Positions 14,971 to 20,003 are shown, numbered from the stretch's first letter. The stretch is DNA of 33,447 bases from a virus (IMGVR_UViG_2734482556_000012); one strand, 5' to 3'. The notes: a model not told the origin generated them from the letters alone. Translations and numbers: made by a program.

Positions 14971-15093
14971 GTTTCTTATCCATTGTTAAGGGCATACCTA
15001 CACAATTATTTTTATTGGAGATGAATAATCAACCGTTTACAATCGTAAAAAATCAAATATGCTGTTAAGAGTGGTTACTTCGCCACACAACTT

Positions 15094-15118
15094 AAACCCG
15101 CCGCTGAGCGGTTTTTTT
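15094..15118 (+). terminator. rho-independent terminator-like hairpin
   Basis: Short GC stem (ACCCGC...GCGGT) followed by T7 at 15112-15118. Confidence 0.4.
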
Positions 15119-15216
15119 GTACCTGTAAACTTGGTGCAGTACAGTAAACACGCTGGTGGTCGTGAATACTGACTTTTTATCTTGCTGGCTTTTTAGACAA
15201 GAGTTATTGGTATGTC

Positions 15217-15444
15217 ATGTTAACCAGAAGGGAAAAAGACATGCTAAAACAGCAAGATATGACAGAAACCGCCGCCGCAGTCCTTCATTTCTTACCTGCT
15301 GACAAGTGGGTAACGCCACGCATGATGACGAGAACTACCGGAGTAAGCGAAGCCCGGTGCCAGTTAATACTGACTCAGTTAGTTCTGGCGGGTCTGGCGA
15401 AGGATAACGGTGGGTACGGGAATAAATTCAGACGCTGCCAGTAA
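15217..15444 (+). CDS. small wHTH protein, FaeA/PapI-like
   Basis: About 70 aa with AAVLHFL...TGVSEARCQLILTQLVLAGL, architecture like PapI/FaeA; alternative start ATG 15241 has a better RBS. Confidence 0.4.
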   Translation: MLTRREKDMLKQQDMTETAAAVLHFLPADKWVTPRMMTRTTGVSEARCQLILTQLVLAGLAKDNGGYGNKFRRCQ

Positions 15445-15594
15445 TGGCGGTTTCCTGCTGTGAAAATGGGCGGCTGGTGGGTGTTGGTAGCACCTGCCAG
15501 CCATTCGCTCATGCTTACTGGTCACAAGCGAACCACGGCCCACTGCTTTAGCGCAAAAGCAGAGTGAGCCTACCAGAGTTACGCTTACTGATCC

Positions 15595-16647
15595 ATGAAA
15601 AATACTGTAAAAATAAACAGTGTTGATTTAATCAACGCTGATTGCCTGCATTTTATTCAGTCCCTGCCTGATGATTCCATTGACCTGATTGTTACCGATC
15701 CGCCTTACTTCAAGGTGAAACCCAACGGTTGGGACAATCAGTGGAAAGGGGACGAAGATTACCTTAAGTGGCTGGACCACTGTCTGGCCCAGTTCTGGCG
15801 GGTGTTAAAACCTGCCGGAAGCCTTTACCTGTTCTGTGGGCATCGTCTGGCATCTGATATTGAGATCATGATGCGTGAACGTTTCAACGTGCTTAACCAT
15901 ATCATCTGGGCGAAGCCGTCCGGACGTTGGAATGGGTGTAATAAAGAAAGTCTGCGCGCATATTTTCCTGCCACAGAGCGCGTTCTGTTTGCTGAACATT
16001 ACCAGGGGCCATATCGCGGCAAAAGTGACGGCTATGCGGCAAAAGAAAGGGAACTCAAACAGCACATAATGGCACCGCTGATATCGTATTTCAGGGATGC
16101 TCGTGCCGAACTGGGTATAACGGCAAAACAAATTGCCGAAGCCACAGGTAAGAAAAATATGGTTTCCCACTGGTTTGGTGCCAGTCAGTGGCAGTTGCCG
16201 AATGAGGCTGACTATCGGAAGTTACAGGCACTGTTTTCCCGTATAGCGGCAGAGAAGTTTCAGGAACAACAACTGGAACAACCACACCACCAGCTGGTGG
16301 CATCTTATGATTCACTGAATCGCAAATATTCTGAATTGCTGGATGAGTTTAAATCTCTCCGGCGCTATTTCTCCGTATCAGTCTCCGTGCCTTATACCGA
16401 TGTCTGGATGCATAAACCCGTTCAGTTCTACCCGGGTAAACATCCGTGTGAGAAACCTGCGGATATGCTCCGGCAAATAATCAATGCCAGTAGTCGACCT
16501 GGTGATCTGGTTGCTGATTTTTTTATGGGATCCGGTTCCACAATAAAAGCAGCAATGGCGCTGGGGCGTCGGGCCTTAGGTGTTGAGCTTGAGTCAGAGC
16601 GGTTTAACCAGACAGTGAAAGAGATAAACGAGCTGGTGGGGAAATAA
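15595..16647 (+). CDS. beta-class DNA methyltransferase (N6A or N4C), orphan
   Basis: Motif IV VTDPPYF near the N-terminus and motif I FFMGSGST near the C-terminus, with a ~130-aa insert between; no adjacent restriction gene. Confidence 0.8.
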   Translation: MKNTVKINSVDLINADCLHFIQSLPDDSIDLIVTDPPYFKVKPNGWDNQWKGDEDYLKWLDHCLAQFWRVLKPAGSLYLFCGHRLASDIEIMMRERFNVLNHIIWAKPSGRWNGCNKESLRAYFPATERVLFAEHYQGPYRGKSDGYAAKERELKQHIMAPLISYFRDARAELGITAKQIAEATGKKNMVSHWFGASQWQLPNEADYRKLQALFSRIAAEKFQEQQLEQPHHQLVASYDSLNRKYSELLDEFKSLRRYFSVSVSVPYTDVWMHKPVQFYPGKHPCEKPADMLRQIINASSRPGDLVADFFMGSGSTIKAAMALGRRALGVELESERFNQTVKEINELVGK

Positions 16648-16653
16648 TCTGGT

Positions 16654-16676
16654 GGCCACGTAGGTGGCCTTTTTAT
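16654..16676 (+). terminator. rho-independent terminator after the MTase gene
   Basis: GGCCAC/GTGGCC stem with 4-nt loop, then CTTTTTATTT. Confidence 0.5.
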
Positions 16677-16713
16677 TTCCATTACACAGCACCCGCATCT
16701 GCGAGGTGGGGTT

Positions 16714-16929
16714 ATGAAATCCATGGATAAGTTAACAACGGGTGTCGCCTATGGCACCTCAGCAGGTAGTGCCGGGTACTGGTTTTTACAGTTGCTCGAT
16801 AAAGTCACGCCCTCACAGTGGGCGGCAATAGGTGTGCTGGGTAGTCTGGTATTTGGCTTGCTGACGTATCTGACAAACCTTTATTTCAAGATTAAAGAAG
16901 ATAAGCGTAAGGCTGCACGGGGAGAGTAA
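16714..16929 (+). CDS. S: class II holin, phage-21 S-type pinholin with dual start (MKSM)
   Basis: 71 aa, two TMDs, near-identical by eye to S21 ([17 protein letters not shown]...[10 protein letters not shown]...[18 protein letters not shown]); GAGGTGGGG RBS. Confidence 0.85.
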
Positions 16930-16933
16930 TTCA

Positions 16934-17278
16934 ATGACTCAAAACTATGAACTGATTGTGAAAGGGATCCGCAATTTTGAGAATAAAGTTACGGTAACTT
17001 TAGCGTTACGGGACAAAAAACGCTTTGACGGTGAAATTTTAGACCTGGACATCTCGCTGGACCGTGTTGAAGGTGCCGCGCTGGAGTTTTATGAGGCAGC
17101 AGCCAGAAGGAGCATCAGACAGGTCTTCCTGGATGTTGCTGCCGGGTTATGTGAAGGGGATGAGCAGTCACCGGAAAAGCGCCCCATAATTTTAGAGGCG
17201 CAGGGTGTGTGGATAACCTACAAAGGAAAACTGCCGGGAAGAATTACTGGTTCACTGAAGACTCCGCCGAAATGGTAA
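16934..17278 (+). CDS. hypothetical soluble protein (114 aa) inserted between holin and endolysin
   Basis: ATG 16934 with GGGGAGAG RBS; no TM segment; no family recognised. Confidence 0.4.
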   Translation: MTQNYELIVKGIRNFENKVTVTLALRDKKRFDGEILDLDISLDRVEGAALEFYEAAARRSIRQVFLDVAAGLCEGDEQSPEKRPIILEAQGVWITYKGKLPGRITGSLKTPPKW

Positions 17279-17516
17279 TTTCACCAGCATATTTTTCTTC
17301 CAGTAATACCGCCAGCCACTTGAAAGAATTTTGTTGTTGCTGGGACCATTTGGGGTTGAGTGATTCAAGCTGGAGCGATGCCAGTGTTGGTTGCATTTGT
17401 TCCTTGGGAATTGAGAATGCCAGATATGAAAATGCGACAGTAAGGGCATTTACATCATCCCGAAGCTTGGAAATGCAGTCGAGCAACTCCTGTAGAGAAA
17501 TGGTGCTATTGTCCAT
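17244..17516 (-). CDS. hypothetical protein (90 aa), antisense to the late operon
   Basis: ATG 17516 with GAGAGGA 6 nt upstream; 3' end overlaps the convergent gene by 35 nt. Confidence 0.4.
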   Translation of the reverse strand: MDNSTISLQELLDCISKLRDDVNALTVAFSYLAFSIPKEQMQPTLASLQLESLNPKWSQQQQNSFKWLAVLLEEKYAGEITISAESSVNQ

Positions 17517-17621
17517 AAACAATCCTCTCTATTGTATTTAACTATTCCTTGCCTGATTCAACAGGCCGGGACAGATAAACATATCCAGGGTTCAGAAACC
17601 GATAAATCCTGATAAATATCC

Positions 17622-18155
17622 ATGAACGCAAAAATCAGATACGGCCTGTCGGCTGCCGTTCTGGCACTGATTGCCGTCGGTGCGCCTGCGCCTGATATTC
17701 TCGACCAGTTTCTGGATGAAAAAGAAGGTAACCACACAACGGCATACCGCGATGGTTCCGGCATCTGGACCATCTGTCGTGGTGCCACAATGGTGGATGG
17801 TAAGCCCGTCATACCGGGAATGAGGCTGTCGAAGGAAAAATGCGACCAGGTTAACGCTATTGAACGTGATAAGGCGCTGGCATGGGTGGAGCGCAATATT
17901 AAAGTACCACTGACCGAACCACAGAAAGCGGGTATAGCGTCATTTTGTCCCTATAACATTGGCCCCGGTAAGTGTTTCCCGTCGACGTTTTATAAGCGGC
18001 TGAATGCCGGTGATCGTAAAGGTGCATGCGAGGCGATTCGCTGGTGGATAAAAGATGGTGGGCGCGATTGCCGCATACGTTCAAATAACTGCTATGGACA
18101 GGTTATTCGTCGTGACCAGGAAAGCGCATTAGCCTGTTGGGGGATAGATCAGTGA
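17622..18155 (+). CDS. R: SAR endolysin, T4-lysozyme-like muramidase (GH24)
   Basis: N-terminal Gly/Ala-rich SAR segment [17 protein letters not shown], then E...D...T catalytic spacing ([22 protein letters not shown]). Confidence 0.85.
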
Positions 18156-18619
18156 GCAGAGTCGCCGCGATTATTTATGCTCTGGTTATCTGCATCATCG
18201 TCTGCCTGTCATGGGCTGTTAATCATTACCGTGATAACGCCACCGCCTACAAAGAGCAGCGCGACAAAAATGCCAGAGAACTGAAGCTGGCGAACGCGGC
18301 AATTACTGACATGCAGATGCGTCAGCGTGATGTTGCTGCGATCGATGCAAAATACACGAAGGAGTTAGCCGATGCGAAAACTGAAAATGAAACTCTGCAC
18401 GCTGATGTTGCCGCTGGTCGTAAGCGCCTGCGGGTCAATGCCAGTTGCTCCGCAGCCGTGCGTGAAGCCACCGGACCCACCAGCATGGATAATGCAACCA
18501 GCCCCCGACTGGCAGACACCGCTGAACGGGATTATTTCACCCTCAGAGAACGGTTGATGACGATGCAGAAGCAACTGGAAGGGGCGCAGGAATATATCCG
18601 CACCCAGCGCATTAAGTAG
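18152..18619 (+). CDS. Rz: i-spanin Rz
   Basis: Near-identical by eye to lambda Rz ([29 protein letters not shown]...); GTG start overlapping the endolysin stop. Confidence 0.85.
18372..18557 (+). CDS. Rz1: o-spanin Rz1 lipoprotein, embedded in Rz in the +1 frame
   Basis: Lipobox VSAC and proline-rich [30 protein letters not shown] matching lambda Rz1. Confidence 0.8.
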
Positions 18620-18640
18620 CTGGAGAAAAAACACGAATCT

Positions 18641-19003
18641 GTGGTTTTTACTGAGCGCGGTGTACACGGTGGAACATATGGCGGGAAGTTTGTTGCTTAT
18701 GATTATGCAGCATGGCTAAACCCCGGATTTAAATATGCAGCCTATAAAGTCCTGGATGACTACTTCACCGGAGAACTTCAGCATCGCAACAGCTTAAGTG
18801 CGCAGCTCAATATGAAGTGTCATGAGTTTGATCAGAAAAAAGATATGGCGAGCTTCTGTGGACAAGGGCTGGCGGCATGGCGCTATACGAAGCCAGTGTT
18901 GGTCGCTGAGATTAACTCCCTGGCTAACCAGCTGCAGATAACGATCCCCGGGCTGTCCGGTATTTGCCGGTATGAAATTACCGGAAGGCGCGGTCGTTAC
19001 TGA
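18641..19003 (+). CDS. hypothetical ORF with KilA-N-like motif; non-ATG start, possibly a remnant
   Basis: YDYAAWLNPGFKYAAYKVLDDYF resembles the KilA-N/ORF6N core; no in-frame ATG near the 5' end. Confidence 0.25.
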   Translation: MVFTERGVHGGTYGGKFVAYDYAAWLNPGFKYAAYKVLDDYFTGELQHRNSLSAQLNMKCHEFDQKKDMASFCGQGLAAWRYTKPVLVAEINSLANQLQITIPGLSGICRYEITGRRGRY

Positions 19004-19266
19004 GTAACAGCAGGCATTACAGCAGCCCTTCACTGAGGGGCTGCGATAATGTGAGGAATAAAAAACCGGCAGGGGAAATCCATTGAAGATTTGCCGGTGG
19101 CAAAAGATGGCCATGCTTTTAACCTTAGTAGCAGAGTTACGGAGTTCAACAACGACCGTCGCCGTTATCTTGCTGAAAGGCGTTTCAATGATTTTCATCA
19201 ATTTATTCATCAGCAATGGTGATAATCACTCTCATTTTGGCGGGTCCTTCCGGTGGGGTGGCCTGC

Positions 19267-19287
19267 CACGGGGCGGGAGCGTCGCGG
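19267..19287. other. candidate cosN cohesive-end site
   Basis: CACG-GGGCGGGAGCGT-CGCGG resembles the recalled lambda cos junction ACG-GGGCGGCGACCT-CGCGGG; about 190 bp upstream of the Nu1-like gene, followed by an AT-rich cosB-like region. Confidence 0.45.
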
Positions 19288-19466
19288 AAAAAGGCTAGTT
19301 TTTGCATTTCCATGGCGGCGGCAGCATGTTAGGTAATTTATTGATAATTAAAAGTTATTTCTCTTTTCACCTGTACAATATTTTTTTCTCCCTGTCATTA
19401 GACCAGTTTTCAATTAATTGAAATATATAAATAAACCTGATTTTCACCTGCCAGATGGAGTTGCTT

Positions 19467-20003
19467 ATGTCAAATGTGAGCGGGATCGGTGATGCTTATT
19501 ACTGGAGTGTTTTTAAAATCGCCGAGGCCTTTGGGCTTCACCGGGACACAGTAAAAAAACGGCTCCTCGCGGCCAACACTCCTGTGGCAGCGACTGTCAG
19601 GGGGAACCCCGTTTACGCCCTGCAGCATGTCGGGCCTGCCCTGTTTAGTGTGAAGCATGAGGCAGCAGACTCTGTTCATGATCCATCCCGTATGGAGCCG
19701 AAAGAGAGAAAGGATTGGTACCAGTCTGAAAATGAAAGGATCAAGCTGGAAAAGGAGCAGCGAAAACTCATCCCCGTTGATGAAGTAGTCATCGTCTATT
19801 CGTCCATGAGAAAGGCTGTCGTCCAGGTTCTGGAGACAATTCCGGATGTTCTTGAACGCGATTGCGCCCTGACTCCTCAGGCCGTCGGCGTTGTACAGCA
19901 GGCCATTGATGACCTGCGATACACTCTTCAGGAAAAATCCTACGAGGCTTGTGCTGCTGAATTAATTCCTGATGAGGAAGGAGAGAGTCTCCAGGAGGAA
20001 TAA
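19467..20003 (+). CDS. terminase small subunit, Nu1-like
   Basis: N-terminal wHTH (IAEAFGLHRDTVKKRL) and acidic C-terminus; GGAG RBS 6 nt before ATG 19467 (alternative ATG 19455). Confidence 0.6.
   Translation: MSNVSGIGDAYYWSVFKIAEAFGLHRDTVKKRLLAANTPVAATVRGNPVYALQHVGPALFSVKHEAADSVHDPSRMEPKERKDWYQSENERIKLEKEQRKLIPVDEVVIVYSSMRKAVVQVLETIPDVLERDCALTPQAVGVVQQAIDDLRYTLQEKSYEACAAELIPDEEGESLQEE

What the first reader, a model, noticed from the sequence alone, without database searches (positions are those of the whole stretch)
16934..17621. Two unknown convergent genes inserted between holin and endolysin
In phage-21-type lysis cassettes S and R are normally adjacent. Here about 700 bp separate the pinholin from the SAR endolysin. 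It holds a 114-aa ORF on the late strand with a strong RBS and a 90-aa ORF on the opposite strand with its own RBS and a possible promoter (TTGAAT ... TACAAT) in 17523-17620. The two overlap by 35 nt at their 3' ends. An antisense gene inside the late operon is the classic arrangement for a lysogen-expressed moron (as bor in lambda), so this could be a two-component accessory system such as lysis control, superinfection exclusion or defence.
Basis: partly seen in the sequence, partly recalled or inferred. Interest (0 to 1): 0.65.

Follow-up and report, generated by a model that had tools for sequence, protein, structure and literature searches.

The report
Known YdfR gene plus backward moron
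Between the holin and endolysin genes of this E. coli prophage lie an ordinary, widespread late gene (ydfR) and a small catalogued but unstudied gene that reads backwards through the lysis operon; both are real and common, neither has a proven function, and the backward gene looks like an optional add-on ("moron") that travels with a short tail motif of its convergent neighbour.

Summary
A 114-aa ORF (16934-17278, +) and a 90-aa ORF (17244-17516, -) overlap by 35 nt between a phage-21-type holin and a SAR lysozyme.

Neither gene is unknown to the databases. The + gene is YdfR (Pfam DUF1327, E 8e-42). It matches 4349 of 5426 complete E. coli genomes, and holin-ydfR-lysozyme is the usual order, including K-12 Qin (essQ-ydfR-rrrQ). 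So ydfR is not an insert.

The - gene is PHROG 2411 (UniRef name "Ybl58", RefSeq WP_000370546.1, "hypothetical protein"). It is in 1221 of 5426 genomes, including REL606, CFT073 and EC958.
- It is a true gene: dN/dS is 0.16-0.41, and the frame is open in 18 homologues across several genera.
- It encodes an acidic, soluble, predicted three-helix protein with no informative fold or family match.
- It is optional (absent from PhiR40_1-type cassettes), low in GC, and always points against its host operon. That is moron-like.

New here:
- In about eight different phage contexts it converges on a small ORF ending in KGxLxxx[KR]ITGSLxxP.
- It carries a leader hairpin with compensatory changes.

Function is unproven, and there is no match to known defence or toxin-antitoxin families. 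Interest is modest.

The parts
16714..16929 (+). Class II (phage 21 S-type) holin, 71 aa. This is the upstream flank, not part of the insert.
   Evidence: PF04971, E 2e-35. Annotated as holin/EssD in matching records.
16934..17278 (+). ydfR, a YdfR-family (DUF1327) late gene of 114 aa. Residues 1-74 form a predicted beta-beta-beta-alpha domain. Residues 75-114 form a predicted disordered tail.
   Evidence: PF07041, E 8e-42; phrog_406, E 2.5e-67. RefSeq calls it 'YdfR family protein'. AF2 model mf0e298ed6376: pLDDT mostly 67-86 over 1-70 and below 50 over 74-114.
17222..17269 (+). Codons for the conserved tail motif KGKLPGRITGSLKTPP (YdfR residues 97-112). Part of it lies opposite the 3' end of the antisense gene.
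   Evidence: Motif [KR]I[TF]G[SD]L..P ends the convergent partner ORFs in Citrobacter, Yersinia, L096/L097 and L107. Codons differ synonymously between genera.
17244..17516 (-). Antisense gene for a 90-aa acidic soluble protein. It is PHROG 2411, UniRef name 'Ybl58', identical to RefSeq WP_000370546.1.
   Evidence: phrog_2411, E 4e-59. Present in 1221 of 5426 E. coli genomes. Identical CDS annotated in REL606 and CFT073. dN/dS 0.16-0.41. AF2 three-helix model, pLDDT 77. pI 4.4 with no transmembrane segment.
17271..17565 (.). The about 295-bp segment present here, in phage Chlobot and in vB_EcoS-783R2, but missing from PhiR40_1-type cassettes. This is the true insert (or the deleted segment).
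   Evidence: Alignment A1. Two-piece matches covering 72-81% of the cassette in many phages and genomes. GC 41.8%.
17517..17585 (-). Leader of the antisense gene.
- Shine-Dalgarno GAGAGG at 17524-17529.
- -10 candidate TACAAT at 17531-17536.
- Hairpin GCCTG-TTGAAT-CAGGC at 17551-17566.
- A second -10 candidate, TATGTT, at 17578-17583, which is the one conserved across genera.
   Evidence: Fold z-score -2.57. Cross-genus alignment A9. Homologous leaders in other genera form a hairpin with compensatory changes.
17622..18155 (+). SAR-type lysozyme R, 177 aa. This is the downstream flank.
   Evidence: PF00959, E 1.3e-24. Annotated as lysozyme R / rrrQ in matching records.

Best explanation
SHOWN
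- The segment holds two real genes from catalogued but functionally uncharacterised families.
- ydfR is a standard late gene of S21-type lysis cassettes.
- The antisense gene ('X', PHROG 2411 / Ybl58) is an optional, lower-GC unit. It encodes a small acidic cytoplasmic protein predicted to form a three-helix bundle.
- In phages, X always points against the operon it sits in.
- In phages, X always converges on, and overlaps by 7-47 nt, a small ORF. That ORF ends in the motif KGxLxxx[KR]ITGSLxxP, though the motif is degenerate in the Serratia-type partners.
- X is preceded by a leader hairpin that keeps its pairing through compensatory changes.

INFERRED
- X is a moron-type gene transcribed on its own from a weak promoter, outside the late programme (in the lysogen or early in infection).
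- It acts by protein-protein binding. My committed guess is that it binds the disordered, motif-bearing C-terminal tail of its convergent late partner, here YdfR.
- That would keep the partner inert until Q-dependent late transcription runs head-on through X and shuts it off.
- YdfR itself most likely acts on RNA or RNase E. The K-12 homologue binds the RNase E catalytic half and pulls down RNA (PMC13232886).
For: Identity:
- DUF1327 and phrog_2411 hits.
- Identical annotated genes in REL606 and CFT073. UniRef name Ybl58.

X is a real gene:
- dN/dS 0.16-0.41.
- Sense frame open in 18 of 18 homologues, against stops in the shadow frame in 17 of 18.
- 19 of 21 unique E. coli-type alleles are intact.
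- Homologues reach down to about 25-40% identity across Enterobacterales.

X is moron-like:
- Indel against PhiR40_1.
- GC 41.8%.
- A different antisense gene (phrog_21218) occupies the same slot in 103 genomes.
- X is intact in a decayed cassette remnant next to iha.
- X points against the operon between tail genes M and L, between I and J, upstream of holins, and between N and cI.

Pairing with the partner:
- The motif ends the partners in Citrobacter, Yersinia, L096/L097 and L107.
- Codons differ synonymously: ATT ACT GGT TCA CTG, ATT ACT GGT TCG TTA, ATT ACG GGA TCG TTA.
- The YdfR tail is predicted disordered.
- Both X-type and phrog_21218-type cassettes swap the YdfR tail together with the antisense gene.

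Leader:
- 6 of 14 pairs show changes on both sides. Cells paired are 90.8% against 79.3% in shuffles, with 0 of 500 shuffles reaching the observed value. Pairing falls to 20-41% when the partners are slid.
Against: - No expression data exist for X. Both promoter candidates are weak and the consensus scan called none.
- No terminator follows X.
- Many ITGSL-type ydfR genes lack X. About 1906 genomes carry the tail type against about 1200 with X, so YdfR does not need X.
- X also lives without any partner. It sits on the chromosome between dinI and bssS in Serratia and Chimaeribacter, in Sodalis, on an IncF plasmid, and next to iha. So X has a function of its own.
- The Serratia-prophage partners carry only a degenerate motif (...NGKRAGLTQSSV).
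- No physical-interaction or co-folding test was possible.
- Fold searches gave only non-specific helical matches.
- Frameshifted 94-aa alleles exist.
Confidence: 0.4

Rival explanations
1. X is a stand-alone lysogenic-conversion or anti-host protein. It could act on a host protein or on an incoming phage, for example in exclusion, anti-defence or stress-response tuning. On this view the convergent partner motif is only the piece of flanking DNA that travels with the mobile unit.
For: - X homologues exist without any partner on the Serratia and Chimaeribacter chromosome between dinI and bssS, and in Sodalis.
- X is also alone on a plasmid and next to iha.
- In Serratia-type lambdoid prophages it lies between N and cI, the classic place for lysogen-expressed exclusion genes.
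- It is small, acidic and helical, like many phage inhibitor proteins.
Against: - The partner motif is kept at the protein level, with synonymous codon changes, and it extends beyond the overlap.
- Pure hitch-hiking of flanking DNA does not explain that.
- No similarity to any known exclusion, anti-defence or defence family.
Confidence: 0.3
2. What matters is the act of antisense transcription, not the protein. A - strand transcript starting upstream of X runs into ydfR and the holin gene. It would damp leaky late or lysis expression in the lysogen by collision or RNA duplex formation.
For: - No intrinsic terminator follows X, so read-through into ydfR and S is plausible.
- The convergent overlap is kept in every phage context.
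- The leader is structured.
Against: - There is clear purifying selection on the protein.
- The protein is conserved in chromosomal contexts with no gene opposite it, and there it has its own terminator.
- In other phages the gene opposite is not a lysis gene.
Confidence: 0.1
3. The pair is a lysis-timing device, with antiholin-like or endolysin-control function, as its position between S and R suggests.
For: - Position inside the lysis cassette.
- Extra regulators inside lysis cassettes are known in other phages, for example P1 lydB and P2 lysA/lysB. This rests on my own knowledge and was not tested here.
Against: - Neither protein has a transmembrane segment or signal peptide.
- X and its partner occur between tail genes and next to cI in other phages.
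- K-12 YdfR binds RNase E and RNA rather than envelope proteins (PMC13232886).
- Cassettes work without X.
Confidence: 0.07
4. The 90-aa ORF is a chance or decaying reading frame, and the segment is a spacer.
For: - Some alleles are frameshifted to 94-aa forms or truncated.
- Promoter signals are weak.
Against: - dN/dS is well below 1.
- A full-length profile match.
- Homologues of conserved length in several genera.
- A confident helical model.
- The ORF is intact even in a decayed remnant.
Confidence: 0.03

Closest known systems
essQ-ydfR-rrrQ-rzpQ lysis cassette of the E. coli K-12 Qin prophage
   Same: - Same gene order: S21-type holin, YdfR-family gene, lysozyme, Rz.
- The N-terminal 69 residues of YdfR are nearly identical.
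   Different: - K-12 YdfR (103 aa) has a different tail (...EKLSEKVESYLQHQYSFKIENPANKHERPHHKYL) without the ITGSL motif.
- It overlaps the start of rrrQ.
- There is no antisense gene.
Lambdoid morons such as lambda bor (antisense to the late operon) and lom, or HK97 gene 15 (from my own knowledge)
   Same: - Optional small gene set into a late operon, with lower GC and a present/absent pattern among related phages.
- Like bor, it points against late transcription.
   Different: - bor and lom encode envelope proteins with signal sequences. X is cytoplasmic and acidic.
- Own promoter and terminator are not demonstrable for X.
- X comes with a conserved convergent partner motif and a structured leader, which are not known features of those morons.
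Host and prophage small proteins that bind the catalytic half of RNase E (K-12 YdfR, SlyX; PMC13232886)
   Same: - The + gene here is a close relative of K-12 YdfR.
- The reported binding surface lies in residues 1-72, and that region is conserved here.
   Different: - The interaction was shown only for the K-12 protein.
- Over-expression changed few transcripts.
- Nothing is known for the ITGSL-tail form or for X.
Convergent, overlapping antisense pairs of type I toxin-antitoxin systems (from my own knowledge)
   Same: Two convergent units overlap at their 3' ends, and one is likely made in the resting state.
   Different: - Both units here encode conserved proteins.
- Neither resembles a membrane toxin.
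- The K-12 ydfR over-expressor was sampled during exponential growth (PMC13232886). Its growth curve was not read here, so the absence of toxicity is only presumed.
- No hit in PADLOC or Pfam toxin families.

Membership tests
YdfR family / Pfam DUF1327 (PF07041) | Profile match above the curated gathering score | tested here: met
   141.8 bits against a cut-off of 25, covering profile positions 1-92 of 93. phrog_406 matched 1-114 of 114.
YdfR family / Pfam DUF1327 (PF07041) | Sits between an S21-type holin and the lysozyme in lambdoid prophages | tested here: met
   Same order in K-12 Qin, REL606, CFT073, NU14, EC958, O55:H7 and many phages.
YdfR family / Pfam DUF1327 (PF07041) | Binds the RNase E N-terminal half and RNA, as reported for K-12 YdfR | not testable with these tools
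   Known only from PMC13232886 for the K-12 protein. The reported interaction region (residues 1-72) is conserved here.
PHROG 2411 ('Ybl58') | Full-length profile match | tested here: met
   E 4.3e-59, 1-90 of 90. Citrobacter, Yersinia and L096 homologues also match.
Moron (autonomous accessory gene in a phage operon) | Present or absent between otherwise collinear phages | tested here: met
   PhiR40_1 and many other cassettes lack about 295 bp here. Alternative cargo occupies the same slot.
Moron (autonomous accessory gene in a phage operon) | Base composition differs from the neighbours | tested here: met
   Insert GC is 41.8%, against 47.8% for ydfR and 51.9% for R.
Moron (autonomous accessory gene in a phage operon) | Own promoter and own terminator | tested here: inconclusive
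   The consensus scan calls neither a promoter nor a terminator. There are two weak -10 candidates. The TATGTT-like one is conserved across genera. No structure stands out at the 3' end.
Moron (autonomous accessory gene in a phage operon) | Expressed from the repressed prophage | not testable with these tools
   Needs RNA-seq or TSS mapping in a lysogen.
Known anti-phage defence systems (PADLOC-DB v2) | A match of either protein to a defence-system model | tested here: not met
   0 families for both proteins at E up to 1.
Antiholin or other membrane-acting lysis regulators | A transmembrane segment or export signal | tested here: not met
   The highest 19-residue Kyte-Doolittle mean is 0.88 for X and 0.69 for YdfR, against 1.72 for the holin.
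Toxin-antitoxin modules | Similarity to a toxin or antitoxin family, and a toxic component | tested here: not met
   No Pfam, NCBIfam or PADLOC hit for either protein. Toxicity itself was not tested.

The most novel reading that the evidence does not exclude
X and the ITGSL-tail ORF form a previously undescribed mobile two-gene cassette of Enterobacterales phages.
- The late-strand member is a small coiled-coil or DUF1327 protein ending in KGxLxxx[KR]ITGSLxxP.
- The convergent member is a three-helix protein made from a structured leader.
- The cassette drops 'backwards' into lysis, tail or immunity operons.
- X would bind the partner's disordered tail, giving a lysogen-versus-late switch. This could be a safety catch on an RNA/RNase E-directed late protein, or a way for a lysogen to sabotage related superinfecting phages.
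Probability: 0.2. Interest if true: 0.6.

Novelty: already known. Interest (0 to 1): 0.33.

Why it matters
As found, the locus is ordinary. The same two genes are annotated in more than a thousand complete E. coli genomes, including laboratory strains of the B lineage (REL606, Rosetta2-DE3) and CFT073. One belongs to a named family.

The value of this check is mainly corrective. Holin-ydfR-lysozyme is the norm, and only about 295 bp is optional.

What could matter is that neither gene has a function, although both sit in the best-studied lysis cassette type and in workhorse strains.
- YdfR was recently tied to RNase E.
- The antisense gene turns out to be a conserved, orientation-locked unit with a covarying leader and a recurring partner motif.
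- Together these give a concrete, cheap hypothesis to test in strains every laboratory owns.

Tried and rejected
- Pfam, NCBIfam and PADLOC scans of X gave nothing.
- The AFDB50 library was not available.
- Profile searches against PDB sequences found nothing for either family.
- Rfam found no family in 15000-19500 beyond a sub-threshold STnc130 hit elsewhere.
- hhalign of X against the alternative cargo protein of strain NGF1 showed no relationship.
- The Citrobacter and Yersinia partners are not DUF1327 proteins. Only the tail motif is shared.
- A weak SlyX/FlxA coiled-coil resemblance of the small partners is below any threshold.
- I looked by eye for a LexA box upstream of X, here and in Serratia, and saw none.
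- Codon-position variation (16/13/35) cannot by itself tell X from the + strand shadow ORF 17209-17541, because their wobble positions coincide. The shadow ORF was rejected because it is interrupted in 17 of 18 homologues.
- Literature searches for WP_000370546, ybl58, DUF1327 and ydfR with holin found nothing on function.
- A metagenome scan and two viral-contig scans for distant members found nothing.

Full report
**What is there**

The window is an E. coli lambdoid prophage. The gene order in the region is as follows:
- a DNA methylase at 15595-16647;
- a terminator-like hairpin at 16654-16669;
- a 71-aa phage-21-type holin at 16714-16929 (PF04971, E 2e-35);
- a 114-aa ORF at 16934-17278 (+);
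- a 90-aa ORF at 17244-17516 (-);
- a SAR-type lysozyme at 17622-18155 (PF00959);
- Rz at 18137-18619.

The two ORFs overlap by 35 nt and each has a Shine-Dalgarno sequence.

**The + gene is YdfR and is not an insert**

It scores 141.8 bits against Pfam DUF1327 (cut-off 25) and matches phrog_406 end to end. RefSeq names it "YdfR family protein".

Its DNA matches 4349 of 5426 complete E. coli genomes, with up to 10 copies per genome. Holin-ydfR-lysozyme is the usual order:
- in the listed Stx-phage records and in mEp460 and related temperate phages;
- in K-12 Qin, as essQ-ydfR-rrrQ-rzpQ.

The premise that S and R are normally adjacent may hold for phage 21 itself. That rests on my memory and was not tested. 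It does not hold for this cassette type in E. coli.

The only functional report I found is for K-12 YdfR (PMC13232886, read):
- it binds the catalytic half of RNase E, through residues 1-72;
- it co-purifies with RNA;
- over-expression changes few transcripts.

My AF2 model gives a beta-beta-beta-alpha domain for residues 1-74 and a disordered tail for 75-114. Fold matches are weak and generic.

**The - gene is a real, catalogued, unstudied gene**

It matches phrog_2411 over its full length (E 4e-59). It is identical to RefSeq WP_000370546.1 ("hypothetical protein") in REL606 (in the Rac prophage) and in CFT073. UniRef carries the name Ybl58. Its DNA is in 1221 of 5426 genomes.

Evidence that it codes for protein:
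- dN/dS is 0.16-0.41 in all informative pairs.
- 19 of 21 distinct E. coli-type alleles are intact.
- The frame is open in all 18 homologues from Escherichia, Citrobacter, Yersinia, Serratia, Sodalis and metagenomic phages.
- The + strand shadow ORF (17209-17541) shares its wobble positions, so it could mimic the codon-position signal. It is interrupted in 17 of 18 homologues.

The protein is acidic (pI 4.4) and has no membrane segment. It is predicted to be a three-helix bundle (pLDDT 77). No Pfam, NCBIfam, PADLOC, PDB or BFVD match is informative.

An exhaustive profile search of 1.84 billion representative proteins found only 20 clusters. A second search with distant members extended the family across Enterobacterales, and every member is "hypothetical".

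**Only about 295 bp is optional**

Phage PhiR40_1 and many other cassettes go from ...GSLKTPP-ESQP-stop to the lysozyme in 63 bp. The window, phage Chlobot and vB_EcoS-783R2 carry an extra segment at about 17271-17565.
- The insert has 41.8% GC, against 47.8% for ydfR and 51.9% for R.
- In 79 of 80 close IMG/VR relatives the order is R, X, ydfR. The one exception is cut by a contig end.
- The slot is a swapping point. 103 genomes carry a different antisense gene there (phrog_21218), together with a different YdfR tail.
- Other alleles extend YdfR by a coiled coil to 176-183 aa.

**Where else the family lives**

- A 75%-identical copy is intact in a decayed cassette remnant next to iha in strain F11. 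Another sits IS-flanked on an IncF plasmid.
- In Citrobacter it lies just upstream of two different holin types.
- In Yersinia it lies after tail gene I, or between I and J.
- In two metagenomic phages, whose X protein is close to one from Atlantibacter hermannii, it lies between tail genes M and L.
- In Serratia ficaria-type lambdoid prophages it lies between N and cI.
- In Serratia and Chimaeribacter it is a chromosomal gene between dinI and bssS, co-oriented with them and with its own terminator.

In every phage context it points against the surrounding operon. That is what one expects of an autonomously transcribed moron. It argues against a lysis-specific role.

**A recurring partner**

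In all phage contexts X converges on, and overlaps by 7-47 nt, a small ORF on the operon strand. The partner endings are:

| Source | Partner ending |
|---|---|
| E. coli (YdfR) | ...YKGKLPGRITGSLKTPPKW |
| Citrobacter | ...IEGKIRNEKITGSLRVPMKL and ...INGETRNEKITGSLRAPIKL |
| Yersinia | ...GELYSE[KR]ITGSLFAPLSAHPSE |
| L096 | ...IKGNIFSDQIFGDLKKPPSY |
| L107 | ...IKGGQLRYKRLTGDILIPLES |
| Serratia-type prophages | ...NGKRAGLTQSSV (degenerate) |

- Apart from this tail, the partners are unrelated to DUF1327. They are short coiled coils.
- Their coiled coil resembles, by eye, the C-terminal extension of long YdfR forms.
- The motif is kept with synonymous codon differences and reaches beyond the overlap. 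So it is selected as a peptide.
- In YdfR it lies in the predicted disordered tail, as a short linear binding motif would.

Against a strict dependence between the two:
- Many ITGSL-type ydfR genes lack X: about 1906 genomes against about 1200.
- X exists alone on chromosomes.

**The leader**

Across genera the conserved features are a -10-like TAT[GT][GT]T about 60-85 nt upstream and a stem-loop. In seven non-E. coli leaders:
- RNAalifold finds an outer stem, TCAGCC/GGCTGA, around a hairpin, and 6 of 14 pairs show changes on both sides.
- 90.8% of cells pair, against 79.3% in shuffles, and 0 of 500 shuffles reach the observed value.
- Pairing drops to 20-41% when the partners are slid.

G-U and A-C counts do not tell which strand the hairpin serves. 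No terminator follows X in the window. A - strand transcript could therefore run antisense into ydfR and the holin gene.

**Verdict**

The finding is real but mostly ordinary. It is a named late gene plus a catalogued hypothetical gene, in an arrangement present in about a fifth of E. coli genomes.
- The moron reading of the antisense gene is well supported by comparative evidence, but it lacks expression data.
- Defence, exclusion and lysis control are unsupported.
- The best mechanistic guess is that X binds the motif-bearing tail of its convergent late partner and is switched off by late transcription. This is an inference with low confidence.
- The modestly new points are the conserved partner motif, the orientation rule and the covarying leader.

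Noticed in passing
window 17517-17585 (- strand); L014 2915-3003, L111, L015, L114, L096, L097, L107: The leader of the antisense gene holds a hairpin. In other genera this hairpin keeps its pairing through compensatory changes (CAGTG/CACTG, CAGCG/CGCTG, CTGTG/CACAG, CCATG/CATGG), inside an outer TCAGCC/GGCTGA stem. No Rfam family matched in the window region scanned (15000-19500).
   Followed up: yes
L099 3001-3282 (Serratia marcescens); L101 and L102 3001-3270 (Chimaeribacter-type): Distant homologues of the antisense protein (about 35-40% identity) are chromosomal genes between dinI and bssS. The surrounding synteny is pyrC-dinI-X-bssS-solA. They have their own terminator and no convergent partner.
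   Followed up: partly
L103, L104, L109, L110, L115, L116 (Serratia ficaria-type lambdoid prophages): Here the homologue sits between the N antiterminator and the cI repressor. It points against the pL operon and converges on a 59-aa ORF.
   Followed up: partly
L010 2446-2718 (strain F11, next to iha); L009 2460-2738 (IncF plasmid pCeylon31IncF, next to an autotransporter): Diverged but intact copies of the antisense gene survive outside functional prophages. The F11 copy still carries recognisable remnants of the lysozyme start and of the ydfR 3' end on either side.
   Followed up: partly
L012 521-1071 (strain NGF1); 103 of 5426 E. coli genomes: The same slot between ydfR and the lysozyme can hold a different antisense gene (79 aa, phrog_21218). 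It comes with a different YdfR tail (...CSEARYTIKINSSDNSITGC). Tail and antisense gene are therefore swapped as one unit.
   Followed up: partly
L011 521-1071 (strain H7); proteins P0183, P0187, P0267: Long YdfR forms (176-183 aa) add a coiled coil after the ITGSLKTPP motif. By eye, that coiled coil resembles the small partner ORFs of Citrobacter (MTLEQRVEILERTISGLKKST...). This resemblance was not tested statistically.
   Followed up: partly
L004 5439-7338 (REL606 chromosome 1416625-1418524): In E. coli B the identical essD-ydfR-X-lysozyme-Rz block lies inside the Rac prophage, between sieB/ydaF and trkG.
   Followed up: no
window 17209-17541 (+ strand): A 110-aa 'shadow' ORF lies opposite the antisense gene, in the frame whose wobble positions coincide with it. 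It is open in 17 of 21 E. coli-type alleles but interrupted in 17 of 18 homologues across the family, so it is not a gene.
   Followed up: yes
proteins P0045, P0049, P0051, P0058: Several genomes carry 94-aa alleles of the antisense gene with a frameshifted C-terminal third. The N-terminal 58 residues stay conserved.
   Followed up: no
window 16654-16669 (+ strand): A terminator-like hairpin (GGCCACGTAGGTGGCC followed by a T run) lies between the DNA methylase gene and the holin gene. Late transcription would have to read through it.
   Followed up: no
window 15086-15222 (- strand): A sub-threshold Rfam match to the enterobacterial sRNA STnc130 (26 bits against a gathering score of 55, E 0.82). 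It is probably chance.
   Followed up: no
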